64,000 nt of DNA from an uncultured virus (IMG/VR IMGVR_UViG_3300042393_000573) (taxonomy: Duplodnaviria > Heunggongvirae > Uroviricota > Caudoviricetes). Both the position numbers and the translations under genes were made by a program. The stretch spans positions 1-64,000 of IMG/VR virus record IMGVR_UViG_3300042393_000573; one strand, given 5' to 3'. The notes beneath the pieces were generated by a model. The model was not told where the DNA came from and did no database searches. It was given only the letters and a program-made list of their open reading frames with translations. Each line of letters begins with the position of its first letter. Position 1 is the first letter of the stretch. Positions 25,325 to 49,687 of the stretch are shown here, piece after piece.

Positions 25325-25426
25325 TTCCGTCATGATACATGCAGTTGCTTATAGCAACCCTATTGCTGAGTACGGATAAGCCCAGGATCGCTACCTGGGG
25401 GACCTGAGCAGGTCTATAAACTGCTC
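25325..25426 (+). ncRNA. candidate structured small RNA ending in the repeated pseudoknot
   Basis: TATAAT at 25313; stems TCCGT/ACGGA, GTTGC/GCAAC, CCCAGG/CCTGGG; no ORF. Confidence 0.5.
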
Positions 25427-25436
25427 ATTCTTTGTG

Positions 25437-26012
25437 TTATCTAGTCCACCAAGCAAGATTATATCTTATTTCTTTCGTTACGTCATTAACTCCATGTTCG
25501 TATTCTTTATTTCCAGGATGCATAACTAAAGACAAAGCCTTTGGTTTCATAATTATATTTTTTTTTGGATAAAAAATTTCTCCACCACTATAGTTATTGT
25601 TAATATAAACTACAAAACCGTGAGTAATAATTGGTAGAGATGCATCATATTGAGGGTGATCTTTATCAACTTCATCAGTATGAACATCCAGTCCATGACC
25701 CGTTCTTCTAAAAATTGAGGTTATTGGTAAAAAAGAAAAATCTGAAATACCATATTCTTTAGAAAATATCGGCTTTGCTCTTTCTTCAAGCATTTTAAAG
25801 AACCAATTGTAGTCACGATACCTATCTCTTAAATTGTATTCGTCAATTTGTAGCCTATTGCCATATTGCTCTGTAAGTCCAGATCCATCATTTGAGGCAT
25901 CCCACAAGGAAATGTCTTTTGTTGCTAAATCAAGAATGTAGTCAGCCTCATCTTGAGTCAAAAAGTTTTCAACTACGACAATTTCATTATTAAATGGTCT
26001 CGATATATGCAT
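25437..26012 (-). CDS. 2OG-Fe(II) oxygenase (P4H-like)
   Basis: HTD..YSGGE..HGV..R. Confidence 0.88.
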   Translation of the reverse strand: MHISRPFNNEIVVVENFLTQDEADYILDLATKDISLWDASNDGSGLTEQYGNRLQIDEYNLRDRYRDYNWFFKMLEERAKPIFSKEYGISDFSFLPITSIFRRTGHGLDVHTDEVDKDHPQYDASLPIITHGFVVYINNNYSGGEIFYPKKNIIMKPKALSLVMHPGNKEYEHGVNDVTKEIRYNLAWWTR

Positions 26013-26052
26013 ATATTAATTATATCATACTAGAAACTGCTATAATATATAC

Positions 26053-26674
26053 ATGAATAATGACTTTGACCCTAACAGACTGTCAGTTTTGCCATCTAGA
26101 TATTTTGGAACTTCTTCAGATTTAATATATAAGGTTGATAATGATAAAACAATATTATAATTTTACTACAGAAGAAGAAATTGTTTATGCTTTACAAATA
26201 TTTAAAAAATTAGAAGGTCTTTATAGAGGTAACAATAAGGGAGATAGGTATACAACATTATTTCAGGATCAGTATGATTTAGATTTCCTTACTCTTGTTT
26301 CACTCTATACTGAAAAAATAAAAAAAATATTAGAAAAAGATATATACATTCACTCATCAGCAATTGTGAAATATAATGTAGGAGATAGTATGTGCTTGCA
26401 TTCTGATATTCAAAAAGGTTGTGATGAAGATATTCTTGGTATGCTAGTTTATTTTGACGATGAATATGAAGGTGGTCAAATTGTCTTTCCAAATCAAAAA
26501 AATATTGTTAAAATAAAACCATCAAAAGGTGTTTCAATAACTTTTCCATCTCATGGAGATGAGTCTATGCACTATGTTGAAGAAGTTACAAGTGGAGTCA
26601 GGTATGCCATGACATTTTGTTTTACTACAAATAAAGTATACACAAAAGATTGTTACAGTAGCCTATACATGTAA
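26053..26674 (+). pseudogene. 2OG-Fe(II) oxygenase with an apparent frameshifting 19-nt insertion near the 5' end
   Basis: leaderless ATG 26053 frame stops at 26160; catalytic part (HSD..HYV..R) is in another frame. Confidence 0.55.
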
Positions 26675-26692
26675 TGATGATATAATTTAATT

Positions 26693-26776
26693 GTCCCACA
26701 TAGGACCTTAGCGATGGCATAGTTACCCATTGGATAGAGACCGTGGCGCAAGTCAGGTGAATTGCCTGTGTGGGGC
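26693..26776 (+). ncRNA. candidate structured small RNA (three-way junction)
   Basis: starts 6 nt after TGATATAAT; 12-bp closing stem; GCAA tetraloop hairpin. Confidence 0.55.
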
Positions 26777-26796
26777 CTTAATATTTTCACGGTATA

Positions 26797-27078
26797 ATGA
26801 TAGCAATGACTGAAAAAGAGTTGGAAAATTATAACAAGCAGCAGTATAAGAAGATGCTTGCTAAGATAAAAGAGGATTCTGGCTGTGTAGACTGTGGGGT
26901 TGGTAACCATATAATCTTAGACTTTGATCACATAAGAGACAAGAAATATAATGTATCGAGAATGATCCATGATGGTTTTTCATGGAGGGCTATAAAGAAA
27001 GAGATTGAAAAGTGTGAAGTGGTTTGTGCTAACTGCCACAGGATCAGGACACACAACAGGCTTAACGGTATGATATAA
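26797..27078 (+). CDS. HNH endonuclease
   Basis: CVDC..DFDH..CANCHR.RTH. Confidence 0.8.
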   Translation: MIAMTEKELENYNKQQYKKMLAKIKEDSGCVDCGVGNHIILDFDHIRDKKYNVSRMIHDGFSWRAIKKEIEKCEVVCANCHRIRTHNRLNGMI

Positions 27079-27216
27079 TTATATAATGCCAAAGAAAAAA
27101 GCAGCAGCGTTTAATCCTGTTCAGATCAAAGACGGTTGGATTGTTAGATTATATAAAGATGGTCGTATTAAGTCTAAGATTGCACCATACGAAGTAAAGC
27201 ATCCTAAAAAGTAAAG

Positions 27217-27289
27217 TACCCCTGGCAAGAATCGAACTTGCGACGCATGGCTTAGAAGTCCATCGTTCTGTCCACTGAACTACAAAGGT
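27217..27289 (-). tRNA. tRNA-Arg(TCT)
   Basis: cloverleaf ACCTTTG...CTTCTAA...GTTCGATTC...CAGGGGT; no encoded CCA; two G-U pairs in the acceptor stem. Confidence 0.85.
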
Positions 27290-27372
27290 ATTATTAAGCA
27301 GTTTTACCACCTTTTATAGTATATCATAAATTAAAAAAGGGAGGTATAATTGCTTAAGAAACACAAAAGGAG

Positions 27373-27996
27373 ATGTATATGTCTGTATATGATGTAAAGA
27401 TTAAGTCCGCAGATCAAGAAGAGGATTTTTTAAATAACTTTAAAGGGAAAGTAACTTTGATTATTAATGTTACTGGTGACTGTGGTAATGCTCCTCAATA
27501 TGGAGTTATTGAAACAATATACAGAAAATACAAAGATAAAGGTTTTGAAGTAATTGCTATTCCAACCAATGATTATTGTGGCGTTGGTTTAACGTATGGA
27601 GATCATGTTTATGGAACAGACACTGCAGAATCAGCAAGAGAATTTGCAAAAACAAATTATGGAGTCACATACAAGTTTACTGAATTAATTGAATCTAACC
27701 CTTGCGAAAACCAACTTATCCCAGGATTGCCATCTAAACATGGTAAGGTTACTCCTCATGAAGTTTATAATGTTTTATGCAAAATGTCAGAGGAACTTTG
27801 GAAGAAGGATCCAACATCTGCAGATGGTGGAGGAACTTTGGGCGGTAATTTTGAAAAATATTTGGTAGGAAAAGATGGAAAATTATTAAAAAATTATGAT
27901 AATGGAGCACTGCTAAATTATTCTGAGAAGGCTGGCAGAGCAGATTTAGCATACATCAGAATTTGTAATGATATAGAAAACGCATTAGCAAAATAG
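27373..27996 (+). CDS. glutathione-peroxidase-like protein
   Basis: KGKV..INVTGDCG..QY, GFEVIAIPTND, GNFEKYLV. Confidence 0.8.
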   Translation: MYMSVYDVKIKSADQEEDFLNNFKGKVTLIINVTGDCGNAPQYGVIETIYRKYKDKGFEVIAIPTNDYCGVGLTYGDHVYGTDTAESAREFAKTNYGVTYKFTELIESNPCENQLIPGLPSKHGKVTPHEVYNVLCKMSEELWKKDPTSADGGGTLGGNFEKYLVGKDGKLLKNYDNGALLNYSEKAGRADLAYIRICNDIENALAK

Positions 27997-28220
27997 TTTT
28001 AAATTAAAACTTTCTATATCCTTTAAGATGCTCTTCAATCTCATCCATATATTGCATATATGTTTTGTTACATTTTTCACACTTGAGCACACTGTCTTTA
28101 TCTACACTAAAAATATGCTCATAAACTTTACAGATATTTGATTCCATAAAACCATTATACTACACTTTACAGTTAATGTGTTAGTTGTTAGGCAGTTTTA
28201 GTCATACCCAGGACTTTTTT

Positions 28221-28733
28221 TTATGCTGAAAGTATCTTTGCTAATGCATTGATGGTTGCAGAAATTCGTCCAATATCACGTAATTGATCAACACTGTAAC
28301 CTTCTTGTTTTAATGTATCATAGTGTGCTTTAACACAGAAATGACATTTTCCTATGATTGAAGACGATAAAGAGTAGGCTTCAAACTTACCCTTAGTTGT
28401 TCCACCATGAGAAGTAATAGCATTCATTCTTAGTTGGGCTGGTAAGCCTTTTAAGTTTGCATCCCCAGCCATTTCTACATATGGATACCATGTATTATTT
28501 TGTGCCATAATAGCGCCAGCAGATAGTGCAGCATTTTTTTCTACTTCATCTGTTGCATTAGATACCAAAAATGTAAGTAGTTTTGAATTACCAGTTGCAA
28601 ATGCTGCTGCAATTGCAATATACAATGCATCATTAGCATCAATGGTAGATCTGTTAATTACAGCATCAAGATTAAGCCTAATATCTTTGGCATATTCGGG
28701 AAGGTTTTCGTTTAATTGTTCAACCCAAGTCAT
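28221..28733 (-). CDS. ahpD: alkyl hydroperoxide reductase AhpD
   Basis: LPEYAKDIRLN, MAQNN.WY, LRMN, CHFCVKAH. Confidence 0.9.
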   Translation of the reverse strand: MTWVEQLNENLPEYAKDIRLNLDAVINRSTIDANDALYIAIAAAFATGNSKLLTFLVSNATDEVEKNAALSAGAIMAQNNTWYPYVEMAGDANLKGLPAQLRMNAITSHGGTTKGKFEAYSLSSSIIGKCHFCVKAHYDTLKQEGYSVDQLRDIGRISATINALAKILSA

Positions 28734-29269
28734 TATAAAGTGTCTCCACCTAGCGGTCTATTGCATGCACAAAGTTCTCCAGTTTGCAGGGCATCAAGAA
28801 CTCGAAGTGCTTCATCTGCATTACGACCTACATCAAGGTTATTAACAGTTACATGCTGAATAGTATTGTCAGGATCAACAATAAAGGTTGCACGATAAGC
28901 AACTCCAGATGAGTGATGAACTCCAAGATCTCCAGCCAGTTGATGTGCTGTGTCTGCAAATGACCATGAGTTAGTTCTCTTAAGATCGTCATGAGCATTA
29001 CGCCATGCAATCTTACAAAATTCATTATCAACTGATCCAGTCATAAGGACTGTATCACGATCATTAAAATCATTAACTAAAGCATCATATGCAACAATTT
29101 CTGTTGGGCATACAAATGTAAAGTCTTTTGGATAAAACATAATTATTTTCCATTTTCCTGGAAAAGAATCTTGTGTTATAGTTTCAAATGATGAATCATC
29201 ATATGTTAATGCTCCAGGTTTAACTCCAGTTACTGCAAAGTTACCTAACTTATCTCCAACTGTTTTCAT
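28733..29269 (-). CDS. ahpC: peroxiredoxin AhpC
   Basis: FYPKDFTFVCPTE, GRN..E.LR, LCACN (actinobacterial type). Confidence 0.92.
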   Translation of the reverse strand: MKTVGDKLGNFAVTGVKPGALTYDDSSFETITQDSFPGKWKIIMFYPKDFTFVCPTEIVAYDALVNDFNDRDTVLMTGSVDNEFCKIAWRNAHDDLKRTNSWSFADTAHQLAGDLGVHHSSGVAYRATFIVDPDNTIQHVTVNNLDVGRNADEALRVLDALQTGELCACNRPLGGDTL

Positions 29270-29341
29270 TTTTTCTCTTTCTGTTAGTAGGGTAGGTTGG
29301 ATTTGCACCAACTTTCTTATCTTACCCTTATTATAATTATA

Positions 29342-30079
29342 CTATAGCGACTTGTATCTGTCAACTAAAGCATTTGTCTTATCTATTTCTGTAATGTTTT
29401 CATATGTATTTGAAATCAATATGTCGGTTATCCCCATTGCCTCAAGTTCTTTTATTTTATTAATAATATAGTCTTCTGTACCACATATAGAGTTATTAAA
29501 TTCTCTATCTGTAGTCATTTGAGACTTATCTACATCAATACCTATTGATACTCTAAGCATTATATTATTGTCTTTGTTTAGTTTGTCTAAGTCTTGAATG
29601 AGTGCTATGTTTATTGCAGAGAACTCAGAGCATAAACTGATTAACTTATCACTTGCACCACTTATCGCAATATCAGAATATAGTGTACCCTTTAAATCTT
29701 CAACAAATGATTTGATGTACCCAGATAATTCATCTTTACGTTCTTCACGTGTAGAAGTTTTATTTGTAAAAAGTTCATACTCATTATCATATGTTCCAGA
29801 AACAAAATTAATAATTAGTTTATTATTAAAGTAGTCATAAAATGTTTTTGCTATCATGGATAAATGTCTGGAAGAAATGGTGTAGGGTCTAACTGCTATC
29901 ATAAACCTTTGATTTGGAAAATTGTTTGTTAAAAACATTGCTGAAACCATTGGTTCATTTTGATCTAATTGAAATGTTAAAAGTATTGACTCGTATCTAT
30001 TACTGCCAAGACCTTCAACAACTGTTTTTAATATATTGCTAGTTGAGTATGACCCATTTAGCATCCAATGAAACTTCAT
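29342..30079 (-). CDS. luciferase-like (LLM) flavin monooxygenase, short form
   Basis: MKFHW, FMIAVRPYTIS, INFVSG; C-terminal GT...I..L...GITD. Confidence 0.55.
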   Translation of the reverse strand: MKFHWMLNGSYSTSNILKTVVEGLGSNRYESILLTFQLDQNEPMVSAMFLTNNFPNQRFMIAVRPYTISSRHLSMIAKTFYDYFNNKLIINFVSGTYDNEYELFTNKTSTREERKDELSGYIKSFVEDLKGTLYSDIAISGASDKLISLCSEFSAINIALIQDLDKLNKDNNIMLRVSIGIDVDKSQMTTDREFNNSICGTEDYIINKIKELEAMGITDILISNTYENITEIDKTNALVDRYKSL

Positions 30080-30097
30080 ACTCCTCCTAAATATTTT

Positions 30098-30169
30098 GAG
30101 CGGATGATGAGAATTGAACTTGCCCCTTTTTCTTGGAAGGCAGAAGTGCTACCAATATTCAATATTCTC
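30098..30169 (-). pseudogene. degenerate tRNA-Gly(TCC)
   Basis: CTTCCAA anticodon loop, GTTCAATTC T-loop and 3' ATCCGCTC kept; acceptor, anticodon and T stems mismatched. Confidence 0.7.
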
Positions 30170-30181
30170 ATTACTTAATTG

Positions 30182-30255
30182 TACACCAGGTAGGACTTGA
30201 ACCTACGATAGCCGAATTATGAGTTCGGTGCCTTAACCAACTTGGCTACTGGTGC
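30182..30255 (-). tRNA. tRNA with CAT anticodon (elongator Met or Ile2)
   Basis: GCACCAG...CCGAA-CTCATAA-TTCGG...GTTCAAGTC...CTGGTGT; lacks initiator GGG/CCC stem. Confidence 0.9.
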
Positions 30256-30308
30256 ATAGTTCAATTATAGCAAATAATCAAATAAATGTCAACCTTCATT
30301 AATTTATT

Positions 30309-31097
30309 TTATTCTTCTAGCACATTTACTGTAAACATAACTTCATTATTTTCATTTTTAATTTCTTTTATAACGTAAATTTTATCATCTAGATTTGAAT
30401 AATATTGATCAACATTTCCAGAATACACATCTTCTATTGTTTTTCCTAAATATTTGTGATTTGAACAAGACAAAACAGAAATCCAATCTGTATGATTCTT
30501 GTCAGTCCTTTTATTTAGAGATATCCAGTGTTCAGGTTTTTTATTACAAAAATAACATTCAGGGGCCTTTAATCTGTTTAAAGTAACAGACCATTCACCA
30601 TCTTTATCAAAGGCAATCAAATCATTGACATCATATGCCGAATCTTTATCTCTATCTTTTTGTAATGTTGTTGTATGTTCTTTAGTTTTACTTATAGAAT
30701 AGGTATAATCAAAAAGCCCAAGACCGTCTTGAGGAATAGCAGGAGCAGAAAAATGATCTATGATTAGGTCAATATCAGGCAAATCATTTTCTAAAAAAAG
30801 ATCAAATTGAATTTTTGCAGGGTAACAGTTTTCCCAAATTCTACAAGAATAGTATCCATTTTCTAGGATACCTTGAACAATACTTCCAGCATTATCAGAA
30901 TCTATATCTGGTATTTTTGTTCCTACAGGTCCAAAAATTGGCTTTCCTAAATAGTTTTTATGTATTGGCCCGTCTGATCCTGTATCGCACTTATGTTTTA
31001 TGCTATATTCTGTAAGTCCTCTAAAAATATTTATTAAATGAGGAAGATGTGTCACAGGGTTTATAGTAAAACCATTTAAAGTAAGTCTAGTTGGCAT
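30309..31097 (-). CDS. hypothetical protein; N-half resembles a degenerate SAM decarboxylase
   Basis: LNGF...GILENGY.SCRIWE..PAKIQFDLF; C-terminal CYFC..C..H. Confidence 0.4.
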   Translation of the reverse strand: MPTRLTLNGFTINPVTHLPHLINIFRGLTEYSIKHKCDTGSDGPIHKNYLGKPIFGPVGTKIPDIDSDNAGSIVQGILENGYYSCRIWENCYPAKIQFDLFLENDLPDIDLIIDHFSAPAIPQDGLGLFDYTYSISKTKEHTTTLQKDRDKDSAYDVNDLIAFDKDGEWSVTLNRLKAPECYFCNKKPEHWISLNKRTDKNHTDWISVLSCSNHKYLGKTIEDVYSGNVDQYYSNLDDKIYVIKEIKNENNEVMFTVNVLEE

Positions 31098-31101
31098 ATG
31101 T

Positions 31102-31902
31102 TTATCCTTGTGTATTTAAAACGTCATAGTCTAAAATTAAAGATGCTCTTGGAAAATTTGCAACAGCACTATGAAAAACACCAATAGGTATATACATAAC
31201 ATCTCCAGGTTTCATAATGTATGAATCATAAGTCAAAGTTCTTTGTTGTTCATAAGTTAATGAATCTCTTTCTGTACTGTTTTTAATATGATAAATTCTA
31301 TATTCAACTTCTCCAGCGCATGTCCAAGAAACGACAGACTGCCTATCTGAATGACCAGTTCCAACATATTCATTTCCAGCAAAATTTATTAAAGACTTTA
31401 CAGTGTTTAGCATATCCTGTTTATAGAATATAGATAAAAAATTATCAAGATATGGCATGTTGTACCAACTATGTTCAAAAGAAGGTGTCTGTATGGAAAA
31501 ATTTATTTGCTTTATACGTAAAACATGTAAATCTAATTTTTTTAATGAATACATGTTTGTACTTTTGTTGTTATTATTTAACAAAATCTTTGGCCCGTGA
31601 TCCCCATGTTCTTCTTTTTTTGATTCATCATAGATATTTTCACTTACTTCATCAATTATTGGGTTATTATATTGATGATTTATTAAGCCAACAAAATCAC
31701 CCCATTCAGGAGATTGACTCATAAAACCTTTTAAAAATAAAACTTTGCCAGTTTTATCTGATTCTTTCATTTTTAATAATATAGTTTCTCTTATGTTGTT
31801 GTCGGTTGAGGAGAGGGTGAGATCTTCAGAATTTACCTTTGTTTTGTGAGTATTGTCACAATAGGGATAGGTTTTTGACCTACCACAGGTGCATTGCCTC
31901 AT
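31102..31902 (-). CDS. CDGSH Fe-S finger fused to a JmjC/cupin oxygenase
   Basis: CTCGRSKTYPYCDNTH; HSD..MKPGDVMYIP.GVFH. Confidence 0.75.
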   Translation of the reverse strand: MRQCTCGRSKTYPYCDNTHKTKVNSEDLTLSSTDNNIRETILLKMKESDKTGKVLFLKGFMSQSPEWGDFVGLINHQYNNPIIDEVSENIYDESKKEEHGDHGPKILLNNNNKSTNMYSLKKLDLHVLRIKQINFSIQTPSFEHSWYNMPYLDNFLSIFYKQDMLNTVKSLINFAGNEYVGTGHSDRQSVVSWTCAGEVEYRIYHIKNSTERDSLTYEQQRTLTYDSYIMKPGDVMYIPIGVFHSAVANFPRASLILDYDVLNTQG

Positions 31903-31976
31903 ATTACAATTATACCATAGGCCTAAAGTCGGGAATATATTGAAGTATAGTCTAAAAATTGTGCTATAATAAAGTC

Positions 31977-32693: not shown

Positions 32694-32701
32694 TTTTATA
32701 A

Positions 32702-39811: not shown

Positions 39812-39864
39812 ATATCTATCATATCATAGAGTTATCCACAGGTCAATTATGGTACAATATTTGT

Positions 39865-40413: not shown

Positions 40414-40415
40414 AG

Positions 40416-40436
40416 TTATCCACAGGTTTATCCACA
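40416..40436 (+). promoter_or_regulatory. two DnaA boxes
   Basis: TTATCCACA at 40416 and 40428. Confidence 0.7.
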
Positions 40437-40474
40437 GATTAATCTTACTGATTATCTTATTAGACACCCTAGAA

Positions 40475-41122: not shown

Positions 41123-41124
41123 AG

Positions 41125-43085: not shown

Positions 43086-43233
43086 TGGTTACCTCCAAAT
43101 AGTGGCGGGATACATCAATGGCTCCTTCAAGGTAAGGAACAATGCTATCAGCACCGTCCTCGCTTTCCAAATCCTGTTCAAGGGATATGGCATGCAATCG
43201 GATATATTCTCGGAATGTGTTTAGGTCCATATA

Positions 43234-43536
43234 TTAATTATACGGGTTGGTGTTGATTTTTACAAGTTGTGGGGGTGTGACCTTCATCACATCCAAAGAG
43301 TCTATGGCTATGCCTGCTTGCTTCTTAAAATCATTAAGCATCTCTATAGTATCAATGATGGGGGACCAAACCTCTTCAATGCTAATGTAAGCCATCCAGC
43401 GTCCACATGGGCATTTCATCTCTACAGATCCCAGGGGAAAGCCAAAGCCATCTCTAGCGGTAAACTCAAGAAGAGCGTCACACTCATCAGGGTCACAAAC
43501 AAATGTATACTTACTCCACATAGTCATCATCCTCAT
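43234..43536 (-). CDS. hypothetical zinc-binding protein
   Basis: CDPDEC..CPCG. Confidence 0.55.
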   Translation of the reverse strand: MRMMTMWSKYTFVCDPDECDALLEFTARDGFGFPLGSVEMKCPCGRWMAYISIEEVWSPIIDTIEMLNDFKKQAGIAIDSLDVMKVTPPQLVKINTNPYN

Positions 43537-44110
43537 CTAAGAAATCATTATAGGACCCAAAGGTTGGGGTAGCCCAGTCAGGAGCATCAATGCCCCAATT
43601 ATCAGGGGAGTAAACAACATCTCTTGTGCCATCAGGATTCATTAGTCAAAGTACCCTTCTGCCCATAGGCCTTGAAGAAACTGTTGTGCCATGAGAATAC
43701 CTTCTTTATCATCAGGGTCACTTAAATACTTATATGAGTTATGAACGGCATTGCTCATCTTATCTAAATCATCAATGTCATAGCCTAACATCAGTTCTCC
43801 TCATCCCACCAGTATTTGACTATTGTATTCAAGGTAGTGTGGATGTTACAATCACAATCCCCACCGTTCATATTCTCCATGTATTCGAGATGTGGCTCAT
43901 TGTCCATGTACATCTCATTGACTAATTCGTCAATCGTTCTCATTGTTTGGGTCATGTATTAATTATCGCAGAGATTGGGGGAAATGTCAAGTCGTTCGTA
44001 AAGATTTTTAGGTTTGACATTTTTGGGGAAAAGGTTTGACTATCGTAAAGTTTATTTTATTTGACATTTTTATGTCCGATTTGTACTAATTTCCACACGT
44101 GGCGATTTTG

Positions 44111-44184
44111 CGAAGTGTACGGGACTTGAACCCGTGATCTCTACCGTGACAGGGTAGCGCATTAACCAACTATGCTAACACTCC
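44111..44184 (-). tRNA. tRNA-Asp(GTC)
   Basis: GGAGTGT...CTACC-CTGTCAC-GGTAG...GTTCAAGTC...ACACTTC-G. Confidence 0.92.
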
Positions 44185-44226
44185 AATTAAGGAAAGCAGT
44201 TTTAAATCATGCTTAGGATTTTTTTG

Positions 44227-45243
44227 TTATGCGAGTTGCATTACATTCTGTACAACTTTTAGCAAACGATTCTTTTCTGCATTGATAGCAGGGTCAAATC
44301 CTGATGCTGATGCAAGGATTGATTCGTTAGAACCACCACGAGCAGAACGATACCAGTCAAGGCGCTCAGTTAGTGCATTGAAAGCACCCCATGCACTACC
44401 AGCAATCATACCATTGAACTCGCCTGTGTAAATATCATTGATTGAATCAATTTTATTCTCCCACTTTTTTAGCGAACCCTTAGCATCTGTTTCTGGTTTT
44501 GCATATGCAGCCAATACAATATCATTGAATTGCTTAGCATTGACTTCTTTTTCAATCATAGCCTTAGCCATAATATCAAATGCGTCCATGTACTTGTTAG
44601 CCATTCCAAGAGTCTCACGAGCAACTGCAACCTTACCGCTTGCAGTCTGTGTATGACGAATCTTGAATGATTGCTTAACGCCATTCTTTTTCTTGATTGA
44701 GCCAAGAGCAAGATTGAGAGTGTTAGCGCACACAACACGAACAGGTGTGATGCTTGCTTGAATAGCGATTGAGCCATCATGTGATGTGTTGATAAGTAAA
44801 TAAGTCTTTACCTTATCGGCAACACCGCTAGGGTCTAGGACAGTCTCACGCTCTAGTGCCAACGCACCGAACACAACACGGCCACCCTTAATTGAGCCAG
44901 CAGTCTCCCAACGGCCTCCGCCGTCTAGAATGTTGTCACCGAATGAGAATAAATCTTCATTCTGCATTACATGGTAACGCTCACCAACGACACCAAGAAT
45001 GTCGGTCTGTGTTGTATCTGTAGGGTTAGTACGCAATACATATTGATAATTCTTATCTGATGATAAGTGGGTCGGTACTGTTAAATCTTCAAGACGAACA
45101 TTCCAATTAGAAAGATTAGCAAGCGCCAACATTTCTGATGTAGTTTTTTCTTCTGTGAATACAGTACCCAATCCATGCCAAGCAGGTTCACGGAATGATG
45201 CAAATGATGCAACGCCGTTTTGTGTTTCTAGGTCATGTGCCAT
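44227..45243 (-). CDS. DUF932-family phage/plasmid protein
   Basis: MAH..PAWHGLG, ETAGS..GGR, SHDGS, TPVRVVCANTL. Confidence 0.88.
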   Translation of the reverse strand: MAHDLETQNGVASFASFREPAWHGLGTVFTEEKTTSEMLALANLSNWNVRLEDLTVPTHLSSDKNYQYVLRTNPTDTTQTDILGVVGERYHVMQNEDLFSFGDNILDGGGRWETAGSIKGGRVVFGALALERETVLDPSGVADKVKTYLLINTSHDGSIAIQASITPVRVVCANTLNLALGSIKKKNGVKQSFKIRHTQTASGKVAVARETLGMANKYMDAFDIMAKAMIEKEVNAKQFNDIVLAAYAKPETDAKGSLKKWENKIDSINDIYTGEFNGMIAGSAWGAFNALTERLDWYRSARGGSNESILASASGFDPAINAEKNRLLKVVQNVMQLA

Positions 45244-45273
45244 GAGTTTCTCTTTTCTGTTGTTGTTAATCTA

Positions 45274-45295
45274 AGTATACATGGGTGGACTGACA
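45274..45295 (-). promoter_or_regulatory. RecA-NDp/PafBC-type promoter (also has TTGACT -35)
   Basis: TGTCAG-N10-TATACT. Confidence 0.65.
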
Positions 45296-45494
45296 AAGTC
45301 AAATCGTATAAGTATACATGGGGCAATTCGGACATTTCTTAAAGGTGATCTTAATCACAGCCTGTGGATAAACCTGTGGATAACCCCCACGTGCAAATTA
45401 AAATAAAAAGTGAACAGTTTTACATCGTGTTCAGGATGTTTCGCCACTTATTTATACTGGCTGTACGGTGGCCAGTTGTATTAGTAGCCCCCTA

Positions 45495-45923
45495 CTAAAT
45501 ATCTATTCTATCAACACTCGATGATAACCAAGAAATATTATCTGAGTCATATTGCACGGTATCAAAATCAATATCGTGAATTACATTCTGTGCAGACTCT
45601 TCATCACGAGCATTAACAGTAACTGAATAAAGAACTGTAACTTCCAATTCAAACTCTGTTGTTAATTCAAAGCCCATGATTTCAGCAATTTGTTCTGCTT
45701 GAGATTCAGTGATGTCTTCATTACTTAATTCACTAAGGGTCCAGTCCTTCATTCCCTCAACCATACGGTTACGGTCTGCTGAATCGGAATAAGAGCGCTG
45801 GGTTACTTTTTGAGTGTGCTCTTCAAGTTGAGCAATACGCTCATCTTTTATTTTAATCTGAGATAAAAGGAATTCTTGCGTTGTGTTTGGTATTACTGTT
45901 ACTGATTCTTCTGTTTGGTCCAT
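45495..45923 (-). CDS. acidic hypothetical protein
   Basis: start moved to the ATG after purine-rich SD AGAAAGAGG. Confidence 0.65.
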   Translation of the reverse strand: MDQTEESVTVIPNTTQEFLLSQIKIKDERIAQLEEHTQKVTQRSYSDSADRNRMVEGMKDWTLSELSNEDITESQAEQIAEIMGFELTTEFELEVTVLYSVTVNARDEESAQNVIHDIDFDTVQYDSDNISWLSSSVDRIDI

Positions 45924-45954
45924 GGGGGCCTCTTTCTGTAGTTGGTTTAATTTA

Positions 45955-45976
45955 ATTGTACAGGGCACCACTGACA
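45955..45976 (-). promoter_or_regulatory. RecA-NDp/PafBC-type promoter (also has TTGACA -35)
   Basis: TGTCAG-N10-TACAAT. Confidence 0.65.
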
Positions 45977-46131
45977 TTTGTCAAGTCCCCTTAAGGGTGA
46001 GCCTTTTTGGATCGTGCTCAGGATGTCTGCTTCTTTAGGCCTGCAGGAGCCTTGCTCTATAGTATTTCTATTATCGCCCTAATCAGCCTGGCGAAAGTTG
46101 AGGGAGGTTTTTACGCCTCCCCCAATTTCAT

Positions 46132-46554
46132 TTATAGGTACTGTGCGATTGCGTTGTAGGTTGAGGTATTAACTGTTTCCTCATCTGTCATCTTTAACAG
46201 ACGAATTGCGTTTGTTATTTCTTTCTTTGACTCACGATAAGTGCTAATGTGAATTGTCTCAAAGTCCTTCTCAGGCTCTGTTGGCATTTCTTTTTCTGTA
46301 ACTGTTAAGTCAAAGTCAATGTTAAGATTGTTTGACCAATGACGATAGTTAGTACGGAAGTTTTCTGCCTTTGAGATGTTTGCTACGGCATAGGCACAAA
46401 GTGCTTCCTGCCATGCCTTGCGAGCAATTTCATACTTTGCTTCTTTTGCTTCTTGTGTTGCGTAGTCTGTTTCTAGTGTAGCAAGTGCTTGCTCTAGTCC
46501 TGCGATTACTCGAACTGTTGGGATTTTTACATTTATTGCTTTTGCTCTAGCCAT
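46132..46554 (-). CDS. hypothetical protein
   Basis: ORF track; AGAAAAGAG leader. Confidence 0.7.
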   Translation of the reverse strand: MARAKAINVKIPTVRVIAGLEQALATLETDYATQEAKEAKYEIARKAWQEALCAYAVANISKAENFRTNYRHWSNNLNIDFDLTVTEKEMPTEPEKDFETIHISTYRESKKEITNAIRLLKMTDEETVNTSTYNAIAQYL

Positions 46555-46636
46555 CTGTTTATCTCTTTTCTTTTATGGGGTATTAGTTGGGGGAGGTTGA
46601 GCAGTTTGTATTCCTACTCAGGAATTAGTAATTAGA

Positions 46637-46801
46637 TTACTTAGCCGTCCAAGTTGTGTAACGGGCTGAACCATTTACATCTAACTTAACTCGCACATTA
46701 CCATTTGGTAGTGGGTTAATTTCTTGGATAACTCCTGTTACCTTTGACTTCTGTGTCGTGAAAGTATCGCCGACCTTGTATGTTGCTGTTGCTACTGACA
46801 T
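46637..46801 (-). CDS. small beta-rich protein (not in ORF track)
   Basis: MSVATATYKVGDTFTTQKSKVTG...; own promoter. Confidence 0.65.
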   Translation of the reverse strand: MSVATATYKVGDTFTTQKSKVTGVIQEINPLPNGNVRVKLDVNGSARYTTWTAK

Positions 46802-46907
46802 TGTTTTTCTCTTTTCTGTTTAGGGGTTGTTATTTAGTTATACCTAAGTATAACATTTTGGTTGTAGAAATGTCAAATCGAAACTTAACATTTCTCACAT
46901 TGTGAGA

Positions 46908-47078
46908 TTACTTAGAGGTCTTAACCATAGCAAGGCGTTGTGCGCCATTTGCCAAGATGAGGCTAACTCTAGTAACCTTATTAGACATTGGTGTAAATCC
47001 TGCGATACGACCTGTAACGCCTGTCTTGCTTGTTGTGAATAAATCACCAATTTGGTAAGTGTATCCGTGTAGTGTCAT
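46908..47078 (-). CDS. small beta-rich protein, paralog of 46637 (not in ORF track)
   Basis: MTLHGYTYQIGDLFTTSKTGVTG... Confidence 0.65.
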   Translation of the reverse strand: MTLHGYTYQIGDLFTTSKTGVTGRIAGFTPMSNKVTRVSLILANGAQRLAMVKTSK

Positions 47079-47317
47079 TTGGGTCTTGCCTTTCTGTTGT
47101 GGGGGTTAATTGCTTATAGTATAATTTTAGCATAAAAATGTCATAAATACCAATCCAGCGGGGGATTTGCGGTGTGTCCTTAATCACATCTTAAAAGCCT
47201 ATCATAAACTTGACAAACCTGGATCTTTGCGACGTGCACCCTTTTATTTTATTGATGGAAAAATAAAAGAAGCAACAACCAAAATAAAAGTATAACTTGA
47301 GTACTACGCATGTTATC

Positions 47318-48058
47318 TCATTTCTTACTCGATGAAAAAATTATGTCACTCTTAGAGTATACACAAAGTGAGCAAGAAACGCAAGCGCTTCCATTTGTTG
47401 AGATAAGTGGAATCTGTTTATTATTCTCAGGACACTTAGCAGCAGGCTTACCAATCATTTCTTTTATGTCTGCCTTACCAATTGCAAAATTCTTAGCAAG
47501 GTATGCCATGCGTACACCACTGTTAATTTTTAAATCAACGGCAGTTTTTACATTCTCACTATCAGCAGAAAAATAAAGACTAAGATTATCAATGTCCTTA
47601 AGTAGGAGGGCTGCAGATTTTACACGAGTGTATACCCAAAATTGAATATCAGGATTAAGTTTGATTACATCGGACCATGCAGTGGTATAAGTATCATTAA
47701 AGAAGTCACCGTCCCAGTGAATGCGGAATAGCATGGGGGCGTCTTTCTTTATACAATCAGCCTTGAAGTCTGCAATCATCTCAGCAATGAGATTAAGCAT
47801 AGTTAAATAGTCTGCGTCTTTTAGCAGGGCCCAATTGTGTAGCAGGTTAACTTTTACGGTTGGGAAGATCTTTTCGAGTTTTCCTGCATAGCATACGGAT
47901 TCACATACACTCGTGGCACCAGGACACGAGAAAGCCTTTCCAGCAGGGAGGCCAAAGGTATTTGCGATACTTGCTTGTTTTCCATTAGGTGTGACGGCAT
48001 TAGCAACCTTTCTATCTTTAGAGCGTTTTAGTTTAAGTGTATTAGTAGTCAAGGCCAA
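47318..48058 (-). CDS. GP88-family protein
   Basis: FGLPAG..SCPGAT..C...CYA, FRIHWDGDF, FWVYTR. Confidence 0.75.
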   Translation of the reverse strand: MALTTNTLKLKRSKDRKVANAVTPNGKQASIANTFGLPAGKAFSCPGATSVCESVCYAGKLEKIFPTVKVNLLHNWALLKDADYLTMLNLIAEMIADFKADCIKKDAPMLFRIHWDGDFFNDTYTTAWSDVIKLNPDIQFWVYTRVKSAALLLKDIDNLSLYFSADSENVKTAVDLKINSGVRMAYLAKNFAIGKADIKEMIGKPAAKCPENNKQIPLISTNGSACVSCSLCVYSKSDIIFSSSKK

Positions 48059-48245
48059 GACTCATTTCTAGAGCAATGTCTTCGTTATAGGTTGCGGACA
48101 TTTCTTCTAGTAAACAATGAGTGCATTTTTCTTCATATGCGTCTACCGCATTTTCTTTACATTCAGGGCAGGTTGTTGCATAGTATTCATCATAGAATTC
48201 ATCTGCGATATTTCCCATGGGGCTATTCTCCTTCTTGTTGTTTTA

Positions 48246-48267
48246 ATTGTAGCATTTCGGACTGACA
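48246..48267 (-). promoter_or_regulatory. RecA-NDp/PafBC-type promoter
   Basis: TGTCAG-N10-TACAAT. Confidence 0.65.
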
Positions 48268-48410
48268 TTTCCTACGGTTATAGGATTTCTTAGAGGGCAC
48301 GGCAGAGGCCGCATTGCTACGGCGTAATTCCATAAGCCTGCGTAATTCCTCTGGTGTTTTCTTCATAAATTAATCTTAGCATACATGGGAAAAAATGTCA
48401 ATATCTTAAA

Positions 48411-48426
48411 TGTGATAAATCTCACA
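48411..48426. promoter_or_regulatory. CRP-family box
   Basis: TGTGA-N6-TCACA. Confidence 0.6.
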
Positions 48427-48478
48427 CAGGCGCCACGTGCATTTTTATGCGGGGAAGCACATAAAAATACTTTAGTGA

Positions 48479-49409
48479 TTAGTCTTCTTCAAAGAATACA
48501 TACCACTCAATAGTTTCATCATCAAATAAATAAATGTGACCCTCTTCGTTAAAATCATTTCTAGTATAAATATTAAATCCATCTTCATTTTCTGTAATGG
48601 TTTCAATAGTTACATATTCATCATCAACCTTAATTAGATCGCCTTCTATAAGTTGAGATGGTTTTAAGTTATCAGCAAATCTAAGTTCCATATTGTTTAT
48701 TGTATCAGACATTTAGTCCTCCTCTGGTAGCCAAAAAGATAAATGGTGTTGCTCAATTATTGCATCTGCTGGTGCAGTAACCTGCCCACGCCACAACACT
48801 CCTTGAGGCAAATCTATCTCTCTGCGGTAGTCCTCATCATAGTATGCGTCAATAGCATCTATGCAAGGTTGCACCATAGATAGCGGTACTGGAGGATAGT
48901 GATTACCCTGCAAGTGATATGCTAATTGTGTTTCTAAATCAAGTACGGTATCTTGAATACCGAGTGCAGTTACGCTTCCCATTATTTTGTTACGACCTTT
49001 CGTCCTTCACGATAGAAAGTGCGGGTGTGCATCTTTCCACTTGGTTCAGATAAATTAACTGTTGAATATTCATCAGCAAATCCCCAATCAACAATTTCGT
49101 TGAAAGCATTAACTGCACTTAGTGCATCAGAGTAACGACCCGTCCAATGAACGGGGTTACTATCATACGATACTGTTACTGCGTATAGGTATTCGTTATT
49201 CATTACTCACCAACCTTTACTGCTACTGTTGCAAACTTACTTCGCAAAGTGCGGTCATAGACTTCAACGACATACGCCTCAGTATTTTCTCCATACCAAA
49301 TTGCAGGGCGTGGAGAGGCAGAAATAATTTCTCCCTCAAAGTGACGATTACGGGAACGATAGTTTTTACCAATTAGTAAATCCTGTATTGTGTATAGTTT
49401 AGTAGCCAT
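48479..49409 (-). CDS. operon of four small hypothetical ORFs (48479-48712, 48713-48982, 48982-49203, 49203-49409)
   Basis: abutting or TAATG-coupled ORFs. Confidence 0.65.
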
Positions 49410-49443
49410 TGGGCAACCTCTTTCTTTTTTTGTTATTAACTTT

Positions 49444-49465
49444 ATCCTACCATAGGGGTCTGACA
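49444..49465 (-). promoter_or_regulatory. RecA-NDp/PafBC-type promoter
   Basis: TGTCAG-N10-TAGGAT. Confidence 0.65.
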
Positions 49466-49567
49466 AATCTTGCTTATTTATTTTTTCTTACTATGTAAGT
49501 CTAGCCTATTAGTCATAAATTATCAACCTACTAGCGAGTAGTCTTAAATAATGAGACGCTCAGAGAG

Positions 49568-49616
49568 TGTGAGAAAAATCACATGCTACTTAAAGTTATA
49601 CACAGCCTGTGGATAA
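49568..49616. promoter_or_regulatory. CRP box plus two DnaA boxes
   Basis: TGTGA-N6-TCACA at 49568; TTATACACA at 49596; TGTGGATAA at 49608. Confidence 0.65.
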
Positions 49617-49687
49617 GTCACACGTGCATTTTTTTTGTTAAAAGATCGAGCAGTTTTAAATCATGCTCAGGATAATTTATTATAGGA

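What the first reader, a model, noticed from the sequence alone, without database searches (positions are those of the whole stretch)
25401..49673. Seven copies of a small covarying H-type RNA pseudoknot downstream of genes
Seen on the transcribed strand: S1-CU-S2-N-S1'-(A-rich linker, usually AAAC)-S2'. Copies: 25401-25426(+) GAC/GUC, GAGCA/UGCUC; 28190-28215(-) AGUC/GACU, GGGUA/UGCCU; 44194-44221(-) AAAUC/GAUUU, AAGCA/UGCUU; 45412-45439(-) ACAUC/GAUGU, GAACA/UGUUC; 45999-46024(-) AUC/GAU, GAGC/GCUC; 46599-46625(-) AUUC/GAAU, GAGUA/UGCUC; 49648-49673(-) AUC/GAU, GAGCA/UGCUC. Both stems show compensatory changes while CCU and the A-tract are kept. All are in sense orientation; four start 5-14 nt after a stop codon and one ends about 10 nt before tRNA-Asp. 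I do not recognise the family. Inference: an exonuclease block, a processing or termination signal, or a protein- or ligand-binding element.
Basis: seen in the sequence. Interest (0 to 1): 0.82.

Follow-up and report, generated by a model that had tools for sequence, protein, structure and literature searches.

The report
Widespread gene-end RNA pseudoknot in phages
Seven copies of a 26-base knotted RNA fold sit just behind genes of this uncultured phage; they belong to a very widespread family that is in no RNA catalogue and probably marks and protects the ends of message segments, though that function is untested.

Summary
All seven copies exist as described (7 pattern matches against 0.05 expected). 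They form a compact H-type pseudoknot: S1 (3-5 bp, closing C-G), CU, GAGCA, one non-G base, S1', an A-rich linker ending AAAC, then UGCUC.

Both stems are strongly supported. In 95 distinct sequences the inner pairs have no mismatches, show compensatory changes, and hold 16 G-U pairs against 0 A-C. That points to RNA on the sense strand.

The family matches no Rfam 15 model. It occurs in at least 136 viral contigs and in assemblies of many bacterial phyla and a methanogen.

Copies sit between co-directional genes and hug the upstream stop codon (mode 5-7 nt). They lie 4-14 nt before tRNAs but not behind them, and promoters lie downstream of them. About one in six is followed by a U-tract.

Best reading (about 0.4): a protein-independent barrier at the 3' boundary of the upstream message, sometimes doubling as a terminator hairpin. 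A barrier to 5'-to-3' enzymes that shields downstream RNA is the main rival.

The closest known relative is the plant-virus coremin motif, but two of its defining features are not met.

Earlier notes of this scan describe what seems the same family on other DNA. I found no publication on it.

The parts
25400..25426 (+). Pseudoknot copy 1: S1 GGAC/GUCU (one G-U), L1 CU, S2 GAGCA/UGCUC, L2 G, L3 AUAAAC. It lies at the end of the plus-strand gene block, 10 nt before the end of a convergent minus-strand gene, and a U-rich stretch follows.
   Evidence: (R1 E=3.6e-8)
28190..28215 (-). Pseudoknot copy 2: S1 AGUC/GACU, S2 GGGUA/UGCCU, L3 AAAAC. It starts 5 nt after the stop codon of gene 28221-28733 (CMD family).
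   Evidence: R1 did not find it at E<=0.01.
44194..44221 (-). Pseudoknot copy 3: S1 AAAUC/GAUUU, S2 AAGCA/UGCUU. It starts 5 nt after the stop codon of the DUF932 gene (44227-45243) and ends 9 nt before tRNA-Asp.
44110..44184 (-). tRNA-Asp(GUC). It lies directly downstream of copy 3, so it must be co-transcribed through the pseudoknot.
45412..45439 (-). Pseudoknot copy 4: S1 ACAUC/GAUGU, S2 GAACA/UGUUC. It is followed by a U-rich tract, then CACGTG, then two TTATCCACAGG boxes.
45999..46024 (-). Pseudoknot copy 5, of the subclass with AAAAAGGCUC (S2 GAGC/GCUC, A facing G). It ends 15 nt upstream of a near-consensus promoter.
45955..45984 (-). Sigma-70-like promoter match (TTGACA, 18 nt, TACAAT; 11 of 12) just downstream of copy 5.
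46599..46625 (-). Pseudoknot copy 6: S1 AUUC/GAAU, S2 GAGUA/UGCUC (one U-G). It starts 11 nt after the stop codon of gene 46637-46801 and ends 44 nt before the start of gene 46132-46554.
49648..49673 (-). Pseudoknot copy 7: S1 AUC/GAU, S2 GAGCA/UGCUC. It starts 14 nt after the stop codon of gene 49688-49981 and is followed by a U-rich tract, CACGTG and one TTATCCACAGG box.
27296..27305 (-). Possible remnant: only the 3' half of the motif (AAAAC UGCUU), 6 nt before tRNA-Arg. No 5' half is present.
   Evidence: read by eye, no statistics

Best explanation
The seven repeats are copies of a real cis-acting RNA: a 24-28 nt H-type pseudoknot transcribed as part of the phage's multi-gene messages.

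Shown here: both stems are kept by evolution; the element is read on the sense strand; it belongs to a very widespread family of phages and other mobile elements; and it lies in non-coding DNA tight against the end of the upstream gene.

Inferred: the knot works without a dedicated protein as a mechanical barrier at the 3' boundary of the upstream message. After a cut or a transcript end further downstream (for example the RNase P cut at a tRNA 4-14 nt away), 3'-to-5' exonucleases would trim back to the knot and stop. The finished upstream cistron would then be stable, and the transcript would be divided into units of different lifetime.

In roughly one copy in six a U-tract follows directly, and there the knot probably also serves as the hairpin of an intrinsic terminator.

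The same fold may also hinder enzymes that come from the 5' side. The direction of the block is not settled. My confidence that the structure and family are real is about 0.95. The 0.4 given is for the 3'-boundary barrier function.
For: Structure, S1. On 76 sequences whose S1 was not constrained by the search pattern, the third S1 pair is paired in 76 of 76 with four pair types (AU 30, UA 19, GC 18, CG 9). The covariation score is 0.274 against 0.071 in shuffles (0 of 500 reach it) and at most 0.079 when partners are slid.

Structure, S2. On 95 distinct rows found by a model that scores S2 by sequence only, four of the five S2 pairs have 0 unpaired cells, with AU, UA, GC, GU and UG replacements. 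The closing C-G pair is present in 93 of 93. The inner pairs hold 16 G-U against 0 A-C, which indicates sense-strand RNA.

Breadth. The motif occurs in 136 or more viral loci. The model gave 145 matches in 50 of 50 viral records. In prokaryote assemblies 82 of 121 pattern matches also form S1.

Tie to the upstream gene end:
- In 88 dereplicated instances with one clear upstream frame, the stop-to-S1 distance peaks at 5-7 nt. 38 of the 88 lie at 3-7 nt and none at 0-2 nt.
- With gene calls for 89 copies, the median upstream gap is 13 nt and the median downstream gap 92 nt.
- tRNAs lie 4-14 nt downstream in 9 of 138 instances. Only 1 of 138 has a tRNA upstream (28 nt away), and none are antisense.
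- Sigma-70-like promoters lie between the knot and the next gene in 10 of 84 copies (1 antisense), against 1 of 84 between the stop codon and the knot. In the window, copy 5 lies 15 nt upstream of a -35 box.
- Copy 1 lies at a convergent gene junction with nothing downstream to serve.

U-tract. One follows within 0-6 nt in 24 of 138 instances, against 5-9 of 138 at control offsets (Fisher p 0.009 to 0.0003).

Tandem copies. Three copies stand in one intergenic region, as expected of additive barriers.
Against: - No RNA ends were mapped.
- The closest characterised relative, coremin, blocks enzymes that move 5' to 3': Xrn1, scanning ribosomes and elongating ribosomes (PMC10520033, PMC10321173). 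It is not known to block 3' exonucleases.
- The fold is small (8-10 bp in all). Whether it can stop PNPase, RNase II or RNase R is unknown.
- Most copies (84 of 89) simply lie between two co-directional features. The decisive layouts are rare: 2 convergent against 3 possibly divergent.
- In a Ligilactobacillus prophage the knot precedes the scaffold and major head genes, which would suit protection of the downstream message.
- The tight upstream spacing could merely reflect compact genomes. The median gap between co-directional genes in these loci is 13.5 nt.
- Gene calls came from my own crude caller, and the promoter test uses the E. coli-type consensus.
Confidence: 0.4

Rival explanations
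1. A barrier to 5'-to-3' enzymes, as in viral xrRNAs and coremin. The knot stops RNase J, or RNase E scanning from a 5' end, and so shields the RNA downstream (the next cistron or the pre-tRNA) from decay that starts on the upstream cistron.
For: - It shares with coremin the sequence-specific C-G closing pair, a pyrimidine as first loop base, the linker AAAC followed by U, and an A-U pair at the junction.
- Coremin and its Watson-Crick variant stall Xrn1 and ribosomes (PMC10520033 abstract and results; PMC10321173 passages).
- 59 of 129 non-tRNA instances have a Shine-Dalgarno sequence plus start codon 13-88 nt downstream.
- In a prophage the knot precedes the scaffold and major head genes.
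Against: - The knot hugs the upstream stop codon, not the downstream start (median gaps 13 against 92 nt).
- Promoters lie downstream of it.
- It stands before tRNAs, which RNase P trims anyway, and is almost never found behind tRNAs, where a new 5' end would need cover (9 against 1 of 138).
- Copy 1 has no downstream gene on its strand.
- The hairpin hp2 that coremin needs for Xrn1 resistance is not enriched: 18 of 138 against 27-36 of 138 at control offsets.
- Carriers include assemblies labelled Polynucleobacter and Coxiellaceae. By my recall these groups lack RNase J.
Confidence: 0.25
2. A translation-linked element. The knot sits at the mRNA entrance of the ribosome that is terminating on the upstream stop codon. 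It either insulates the next unit from post-termination ribosomes or modulates termination, readthrough or frameshifting.
For: - The stop-to-S1 distance peaks at 5-7 nt. This is the spacing used by frameshift and readthrough pseudoknots (established knowledge; spacing recalled).
- Coremin promotes -1 frameshifting and blocks scanning ribosomes (PMC10321173, PMC10520033).
Against: - Second and third copies of a tandem array, and 3 of the 7 window copies, lie 55-107 nt or more from any stop codon.
- The frame of the motif's own UGA relative to the upstream stop codon is about uniform (22, 33 and 26 of 81).
- No conserved extension frame or slippery site was seen.
- Stop-codon use is ordinary (TAA 57, TGA 16, TAG 15).
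- The tight spacing is also what compact genomes give.
Confidence: 0.1
3. A general transcription terminator or pause signal in which the pseudoknot replaces the usual hairpin.
For: - U-tracts are enriched right after S2': 24 of 138 against 5-9 of 138.
- The minus-strand block 44-50 kb has several strong promoter matches but no canonical terminator near the knots.
- Canonical terminators are not enriched near copies elsewhere: 7 upstream and 12 downstream of 138, against 8 and 9 on the antisense strand.
Against: - 114 of 138 instances have no U-tract.
- tRNAs 4-14 nt downstream, and genes 13-40 nt downstream, must be transcribed through the knot.
- The motif also occurs in a methanogen assembly. 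Archaeal termination needs no hairpin (recalled).
Confidence: 0.07
4. A tRNA-acceptor-like processing signal. The coaxial S2-S1 stack mimics an acceptor/T stem, and RNase P cuts in loop 1, between the invariant U and the G that starts S2. The downstream RNA would then begin with a hairpin flush at its 5' end.
For: - U before and G-C at the outer end of S2 are nearly invariant.
- The base after S2' is A in 84 of 138 instances. ACC follows in 11 of 138 against 1.7 expected.
- RNase P is universal, which matches the host range. That RNase P cleaves viral tRNA-like pseudoknots is recalled, not checked here.
Against: - The stack is only 8-10 bp and has no T-loop.
- CCA is present in a small minority.
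- The conserved A-rich linker and the inner S2 sequence are not explained.
- The test was not run.
Confidence: 0.07
5. A binding site for a ligand or a protein: a miniature riboswitch, or the operator of a phage or host RNA-binding protein.
For: The sequence of S2, of loop 1 (CU) and of the linker (AAAC) is conserved far beyond what pairing alone requires. The architecture is that of small pseudoknot aptamers such as preQ1-I.
Against: - The junction loop is one unconserved base (U 69, A 49, C 19, G 1), which leaves no evident pocket.
- No Rfam riboswitch model matches.
- Neighbouring genes are of many unrelated kinds.
- Carriers range from CPR bacteria to a methanogen, so no single phage protein partner is likely. 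No co-occurrence test was run.
Confidence: 0.08

Closest known systems
Coremin motif (xrRNA-C) of beny-, cucumo- and other eukaryotic RNA viruses, and its Watson-Crick variant xrRNA-WCC (PMC6546385, PMC10520033, PMC10321173)
   Same: - Both are tiny H-type pseudoknots with a short S1 (3-5 bp).
- The loop-closing pair is a sequence-specific C-G, while the next pairs need only to pair.
- The first loop base is a pyrimidine.
- The linker is A-rich and contains AAAC followed by U.
- An A-U pair sits at the junction.
- The outer S2 pairs, GAG with CUC, are as in the WCC variant.
- Location is just behind reading frames, in 3' UTRs or intergenic regions.
   Different: - The loop here is 8 nt, CUGAGCAH. 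Its second base is U, not the G required by YGAD or YGNNAD.
- S2 is a full 5-bp Watson-Crick helix, followed by one junction base that avoids G.
- Loop 1 is CU, where coremin has one base and WCC has G.
- The downstream hairpin hp2, which coremin needs for Xrn1 resistance, is not enriched here.
- The hosts are DNA phages and mobile elements of prokaryotes, which have no Xrn1.
- I saw coremin only through the papers' text. Their figures with the sequences are not held.
Luteoviral -1 frameshifting pseudoknots (BWYV, PLRV), as described in PMC10321173
   Same: Similar size and layout: a short loop 1 with a C that inserts into the S2 major groove, a 0-1 nt junction, and an A-rich loop in the S1 minor groove. 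The spacing to the preceding decoded codon is 5-9 nt.
   Different: Here the knot follows a stop codon and no slippery site was seen. 81 of 88 upstream frames end before the knot. S2 is 5 bp rather than 3. According to PMC10321173 these frameshifter knots do not stall Xrn1.
3' stabilising stem-loops and processing sites of bacterial and phage messages (REP hairpins, phage T7 RNase III sites) and protein barriers at chloroplast intercistronic sites (PPR proteins blocking RNase J; PMC3799425, abstract in search listing only)
   Same: This is the proposed working principle. A fixed obstacle between cistrons stops exonucleases and so defines the ends and lifetimes of message segments.
   Different: Those are simple hairpins or bound proteins and are lineage-specific. 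Here it is one conserved pseudoknot sequence shared across phages of many phyla. The function is inferred, not shown. REP and T7 are recalled, not checked here.
preQ1-I riboswitch aptamer (Rfam RF00522)
   Same: A minimal H-type pseudoknot with an A-rich 3' linker.
   Different: No match to the Rfam model at E<=10. There is no conserved C in the junction loop and no link to queuosine genes. The motif is multicopy and sits behind genes and before tRNAs.

Membership tests
Coremin / xrRNA-C | 5' hairpin (hp1) of 3-5 bp whose loop-closing pair is a sequence-specific C-G, while the lower pairs need only pair (PMC6546385, results) | tested here: met
   The closing C-G is present in 93 of 93. The next pair is UA 67, AU 24, CG 3. 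The third pair has four pair types and 0 unpaired cells.
Coremin / xrRNA-C | hp1 loop consensus YGAD (4 nt) or YGNNAD (6 nt); 7-8 nt loops starting CG are also active (PMC10520033) | tested here: not met
   The loop is CUGAGCAH. The first base C fits Y, the second base is an invariant U rather than G, and the last base avoids G (U 69, A 49, C 19, G 1).
Coremin / xrRNA-C | Conserved spacer in which A16 to A20 (A, A, C, U, A by the paper's numbering) are essential | tested here: inconclusive
   AAAC followed by U is invariant or nearly so here. The next base is G, paired within a longer S2, rather than A. Homology and convergence cannot be told apart.
Coremin / xrRNA-C | A second hairpin (hp2, at least 4 bp) directly after the spacer, required for Xrn1 resistance | tested here: not met
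   A hairpin of at least 4 bp starts 0-6 nt after S2' in 18 of 138 instances, against 27-36 of 138 at control offsets.
Coremin / xrRNA-C | Stalls a 5'-to-3' exoribonuclease at the base before hp1 | not testable with these tools
xrRNA-WCC (Watson-Crick coremin variant) | A 3-bp Watson-Crick S2 between the hp1 loop and the spacer (GAG with CUC), with a required G as the single loop-1 base | tested here: not met
   S2 is Watson-Crick and starts GAG/CUC, but it is 5 bp long, and loop 1 is CU, not G (PMC10321173 passages).
preQ1-I riboswitch | Match to RF00522, a conserved C in the junction loop, and placement upstream of queuosine or preQ1 genes | tested here: not met
   No Rfam match. The junction loop is one variable base. 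Neighbouring genes are unrelated.
-1 frameshift stimulatory pseudoknot | A slippery heptamer inside an open frame 5-9 nt upstream, with the frame continuing through the knot | tested here: not met
   81 of 88 upstream frames end before the knot. A sense frame is open through flank, knot and 30 further nt in only 5 of 138 instances. A slippery-site scan as such was not run.
Intrinsic (factor-independent) terminator | A stable hairpin immediately followed by a U-tract, with no obligatory read-through | tested here: inconclusive
   A U-tract is present in 24 of 138 instances, which is enriched, and absent in 114. tRNAs and genes close downstream require read-through.

The most novel reading that the evidence does not exclude
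Phages and other mobile elements of bacteria, CPR bacteria and at least one methanogen share one 26-nt RNA knot. It acts without any protein as a barrier to the enzymes that travel along RNA. It would be the prokaryotic counterpart, and possibly a relative, of the nuclease-resistant RNAs of eukaryotic RNA viruses. Phages would use it to punctuate their multi-gene transcripts into separately stable units.
Probability: 0.3. Interest if true: 0.9.

Novelty: new variant of a known kind. Interest (0 to 1): 0.77.

Why it matters
If the knot is a self-sufficient barrier, it would be the first nuclease- or translocase-blocking RNA fold described for DNA phages. It would also be one of the most widely shared small structured RNAs of mobile elements.

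It would give a simple rule for where phage messages end. It would help annotate transcription units in uncultured phages. It would open the question of common origin or convergence with the coremin elements of plant and fungal RNA viruses.

At 26 nt it would also be a handy part for stabilising or insulating cistrons in synthetic operons. Cultured carriers exist, so the question is directly testable.

Tried and rejected
- **Rfam.** The gathering scan of the window gave only three tRNAs. At E<=10 on 44000-50000, and on 66 nt around copy 7, nothing lay at the motif apart from a 13.7-bit snoRNA chance hit.
- **Whole-phage similarity.** No near match was found; only short distant matches to Streptomyces and Mycobacterium phages appeared.
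- **Literature.** Searches for the motif's letters, 'coremin', pseudoknot with phage and antitermination, xrRNA with RNase J and bacteriophage, and pseudoknot with phage, RNases and stabilizer found no description of this element. One preprint on mining non-coding elements was checked by passages and does not mention it.
- **Model phages with published transcriptomes.** No R1 match in Syn9 or Patience, and only weak ones (E 0.02-0.05) in P-SSM2 and S-PM2. Published end maps could therefore not be used.
- **Downstream hairpin (coremin hp2).** Not enriched.
- **Canonical terminators beside the knot.** Not enriched.
- **The motif's UGA as an in-frame back-up stop.** Frames are uniform.
- **Convergent against divergent junctions as a test of direction.** Too few cases: 2 against 3 of 89.
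- **Functions of neighbouring genes (PHROGs).** 12 of 46 upstream and 13 of 46 downstream proteins matched a family. Upstream these include three Gp2.5-like ssDNA-binding proteins, two ribonucleotide reductases and Hsp20. Downstream they include four endonucleases or homing endonucleases, two PhoH, a helicase and an ATPase. This is suggestive but too thin to count.
- **A triple tandem array first scored as a convergent junction.** It proved to lie between co-directional genes.

Full report
**The observation.** Reading the seven stated places shows the same layout each time on the sense strand. S1 has 3-5 bases ending in UC. Then come CU, a 5-base S2 strand (consensus GAGCA), one base, the S1 partner starting GA, an A-rich linker ending AAAC (AAAAAG in copy 5), and the S2 partner (consensus UGCUC).

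A letter pattern for this layout matches 7 times in the window (1 plus, 6 minus). The mean in 500 dinucleotide-preserving shuffles is 0.052, and no shuffle gave more than 1. A purely structural descriptor is much less specific: 11 sites against a shuffle mean of 3.7. The conserved letters therefore matter.

Four copies start 5, 5, 11 and 14 nt after a stop codon. Copy 3 ends 9 nt before tRNA-Asp. All copies share the strand of the gene upstream.

**The genome.** The window is the first 64 kb of a 72,334-nt IMG/VR virus record rated 66% complete, with 36% G+C. Its genes include DNA polymerase III alpha, RecA, DUF932, GP88 and a long run of 2OG-Fe(II) oxygenases and redox enzymes. No close relative is in the GenBank phage collection.

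**Family size.** These held 145 matches, 144 of them distinct by local flank.

I aligned 76 of them, including six window copies, without gaps (A1). From this I built a covariance model that pairs only S1 and treats S2 as plain sequence (R1). R1 found 145 matches at E<=0.01 in 50 of 50 viral records searched. In the window's own record it found 6 of the 7 copies and missed copy 2.

About 150 chance matches are expected there by my own arithmetic. 39 of the 121 matches do look like chance, with no S1 and long spacers. The other 82 also form S1 with the usual spacing.

The titles of those 82 records name many groups: Lachnospiraceae, Clostridium, Ligilactobacillus, Lacticaseibacillus, Eggerthellaceae, several Saccharibacteria and other CPR bacteria, Anaerolineae, Calothrix, Bacteroidota, Polynucleobacter, Coxiellaceae, Hyphomicrobiales, Desulfobacterota and Methanobrevibacter.

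I looked at the surroundings in four of these genomes:
- In Ligilactobacillus the copy is in a prophage head module, between the minor head protein and the scaffold and major head genes.
- In Calothrix two copies follow an anti-restriction gene and its neighbour, near a transposase-like gene.
- In Methanobrevibacter the copy precedes a gene matching metalloprotease and anti-restriction families.
- In Clostridium it precedes a DNA-binding protein gene.

Cultured phages with a copy are Mycobacterium phage Labelle (Patiencevirus), Paracoccus phage ParMal1 (Autographiviridae), cyanophage S-RIM4 and Synechococcus phage S-EIVl (S-EIVl by the BLAST row only).

**Is the fold real?** The search pattern fixed only the closing C-G and the following A of S1. 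The rest of S1 was free.
- The third S1 pair is paired in 76 of 76 sequences, with AU 30, UA 19, GC 18 and CG 9.
- The fourth is paired in 64 of 76, with six pair types.
- The covariation score is 0.274, against 0.071 in shuffles (0 of 500 as high) and at most 0.079 with slid partners.

For S2 I needed copies not chosen by their S2 letters. I fetched 20 stretches of 10-20 kb around multi-copy sites and searched them and the window with R1. This gave 97 matches at E<=1, of which 95 rows are distinct (A2).

R1 penalises any S2 change whether or not it is compensated, so it does not favour pairing. The result:
- Four of the five S2 pairs have no unpaired cell.
- Pair 1 is GC 77, AU 6, GU 4, UA 2.
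- Pair 2 is AU 87, GC 2, GU 1.
- Pair 3 is GC 87, AU 3, GU 1.
- Pair 4 is CG 80, UG 10, UA 1.
- Pair 5 is A-U in 79 rows. In 12 rows, a recurrent subclass with AAAAAGGCUC to which copy 5 belongs, an A faces a G.

Over the inner pairs there are 16 G-U or U-G pairs and no A-C. The sense strand is therefore the folding strand, as expected of RNA.

The core is 24 nt long in 116 of 138 dereplicated instances, although the patterns allowed about 19-29 nt. The single junction base is U 69, A 49, C 19, G 1. The base after S2' is A in 84 of 138, and G is rare at the next three positions.

Limits of this evidence: the harvest is seeded by the consensus S2, so variation is under-sampled. The last few rows of A2 (E above 0.001) are probably false, and their gapped cells were set aside by the tool.

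**Context.** I pooled the viral and genomic pattern hits that form S1 (213) and removed look-alike flanks, which left 138 instances: 76 viral and 62 genomic.
- *Upstream stop codon.* In 88 instances exactly one frame is open through the whole upstream flank and ends within 60 nt of, or inside, the knot. The distance from the stop codon to the first S1 base is 3-7 nt in 38 of them, with a mode at 5-7, and never 0-2. In 7 the first in-frame stop lies inside or beyond the knot, 4 times at the motif's own UGA.
- *tRNAs.* Sense-strand tRNAs (Arg, Asp, Ser, Met, Leu, Gln) start 4-14 nt after the knot in 9 of 138. None are antisense. Only one tRNA lies upstream, 28 nt away.
- *Start codons.* A Shine-Dalgarno-like word plus a start codon opening a frame to the end of the flank lies 13-88 nt downstream in 59 of 129.
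- *Gene calls.* With my own codon-usage gene caller on the 20 long loci and the window, 84 of 89 copies lie between two features on the same strand. Three have an opposite-strand gene upstream and two have one downstream, one of these being window copy 1. The median gap is 13 nt upstream and 92 nt downstream, and 12 of 13 downstream tRNAs are 4-9 nt away.
- *Promoters.* Within these intergenic regions, sigma-70-like promoter matches (at least 10 of 12) lie between the knot and the next gene in 10 of 84 copies, against 1 on the antisense strand. Between the stop codon and the knot there is 1 of 84.
- *The window.* Copy 5 ends 15 nt before a TTGACA-18-TACAAT match. Copies 4 and 7 are followed by a U-rich tract and a second conserved motif. 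No canonical terminator lies near any copy on the minus strand of 44-50 kb, although several strong promoter matches do.
- *U-tracts and hairpins.* A U-tract (at least 6 U in 8) starts 0-6 nt after S2' in 24 of 138, against 5-9 of 138 at control offsets. A further hairpin directly downstream is not enriched: 18 of 138 against 27-36 of 138. Canonical terminators are not enriched on either side.
- *Tandem copies.* One locus has three knots in a row in a 260-nt gap between co-directional genes.

**What it most likely does.** The constant partner of the knot is the end of an upstream reading frame. What follows varies: a gene start, a tRNA, a promoter, another knot or, rarely, a convergent gene.
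- The tRNA cases show that transcription runs through the knot, so it is not a general terminator. They also show that it need not serve translation of what follows.
- The knot stands before tRNAs and not behind them, and it stands upstream of promoters. Both points argue that it belongs to the upstream message. An RNase P cut at the tRNA would leave that message ending in the knot plus a 4-14 nt tail.
- I therefore favour a protein-independent barrier at the 3' boundary of the upstream cistron. Where a U-tract follows, it probably doubles as a terminator hairpin.

These steps are inferred, not shown.

The main rival is a block to enzymes moving 5' to 3', which would shield the downstream RNA. 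The biochemistry of the closest known motif supports this rival, as does the prophage case where the knot precedes the scaffold and major head genes. Both directions could hold at once, as for the protein barriers at chloroplast intercistronic sites (PMC3799425, abstract start in a search listing; otherwise recalled).

**Comparison with what is known.** Earlier notes of this scan pointed me to the coremin motif. I read three papers:
- PMC6546385: abstract and results, part 1;
- PMC10520033: abstract, introduction and results, part 1;
- PMC10321173: first part and passages.

Their figures, which carry the sequences, are not held, so the comparison rests on the text.

Features shared with coremin:
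- a 3-5 bp first hairpin whose closing pair must be C-G while the lower pairs need only pair;
- a pyrimidine as first loop base;
- an essential A-rich spacer with AAC followed by U;
- a proposed H-type pseudoknot in which the A-rich spacer lies in the S1 minor groove;
- in the Watson-Crick variant, GAG paired with CUC.

Features not shared:
- The loop here is CUGAGCAH, with U where G is required.
- S2 is a full 5-bp helix plus a junction base.
- Loop 1 is CU.
- The second hairpin that coremin needs to stall Xrn1 is absent as a rule.

I therefore call it coremin-like in architecture but not a member. Common descent and convergence cannot be told apart. It is also close in build to luteoviral frameshifter knots, but it lies behind stop codons. 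It is not a preQ1-I aptamer.

**Novelty.** No Rfam 15 family matches, and five literature searches found no description. The library lacks most subscription journals, so a description elsewhere cannot be excluded. Many earlier notes of this scan report what is evidently the same 26-28 nt knot in other phages, with both the gene-end and the next-gene readings. Those are unchecked AI notes, and I scored only on my own tests.

**Verdict.** The fold and the family are real with high confidence. The function is inferred: 3'-boundary barrier about 0.4, 5'-to-3' barrier about 0.25, others smaller.

Noticed in passing
window 39832-39842(+), 40416-40438(+), 45361-45383(-), 49606-49616(-), 50980-50990(-): A second dispersed motif, TTATCCACAGG, has 6 exact and 4 one-mismatch copies against 1.42 expected. 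It contains the letters of a DnaA box (recalled). Three minus-strand sites share GCACGTG about 5 nt upstream, and two of them also share TGTGTATAAC just downstream. Two sites follow pseudoknot copies 4 and 7. Related contigs show GTCGTCCACAGG or TTATCCACAGG after their knots. It may be an operator, a phage promoter or a host DnaA site.
   Followed up: partly
window 27296-27305(-): Only the 3' half of the pseudoknot motif (AAAAC UGCUU) lies 6 nt before tRNA-Arg (27216-27289). No 5' half is present. It may be a decayed copy.
   Followed up: no
window 30256-30295(-): tRNA-Met (30181-30255) has its own TTGACA-17-TATAAT promoter match ending a few bases before the tRNA. tRNA-Asp, by contrast, is fed through pseudoknot copy 3.
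   Followed up: no
window 45999-46024(-); also 12 of 91 rows of alignment A2: A recurrent subclass replaces AAAAC UGCUC with AAAAA GGCUC. The C-to-A and U-to-G changes go together, leaving an A facing a G at the junction pair. This hints at a specific tertiary contact there.
   Followed up: partly
window about 45480-45496(-); same letters in L024 and L129: A small hairpin, TAGTAG-GGGG-CTACTA, lies upstream of copy 4. It is conserved directly in front of the knot in other contigs.
   Followed up: no
window 25381-25399(+): A GC-rich hairpin (CCCAGG, 7 nt, CCTGGG) abuts pseudoknot copy 1 at the convergent gene junction. It has no U-tract of its own, but a U-rich stretch follows the knot.
   Followed up: no
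L187 5252-5427 (+): Three pseudoknots stand in tandem in a 260-nt gap between co-directional genes of a GC-richer viral contig. The third has a 4-nt junction loop.
   Followed up: partly
window 19156-39392 and 61608-62189: There is an unusual load of redox and oxygenase genes. Eight ORFs match 2OG-Fe(II) oxygenase, two are JmjC/cupin, two are glutathione peroxidase-like, and there are also AhpC, a CMD-family protein and a carbamoyltransferase.
   Followed up: no
L322 about 4032-4064 (Ligilactobacillus salitolerans prophage): A copy of the knot sits between the minor head protein gene and the scaffold and major head genes of a prophage. The family is therefore not confined to early regions.
   Followed up: partly
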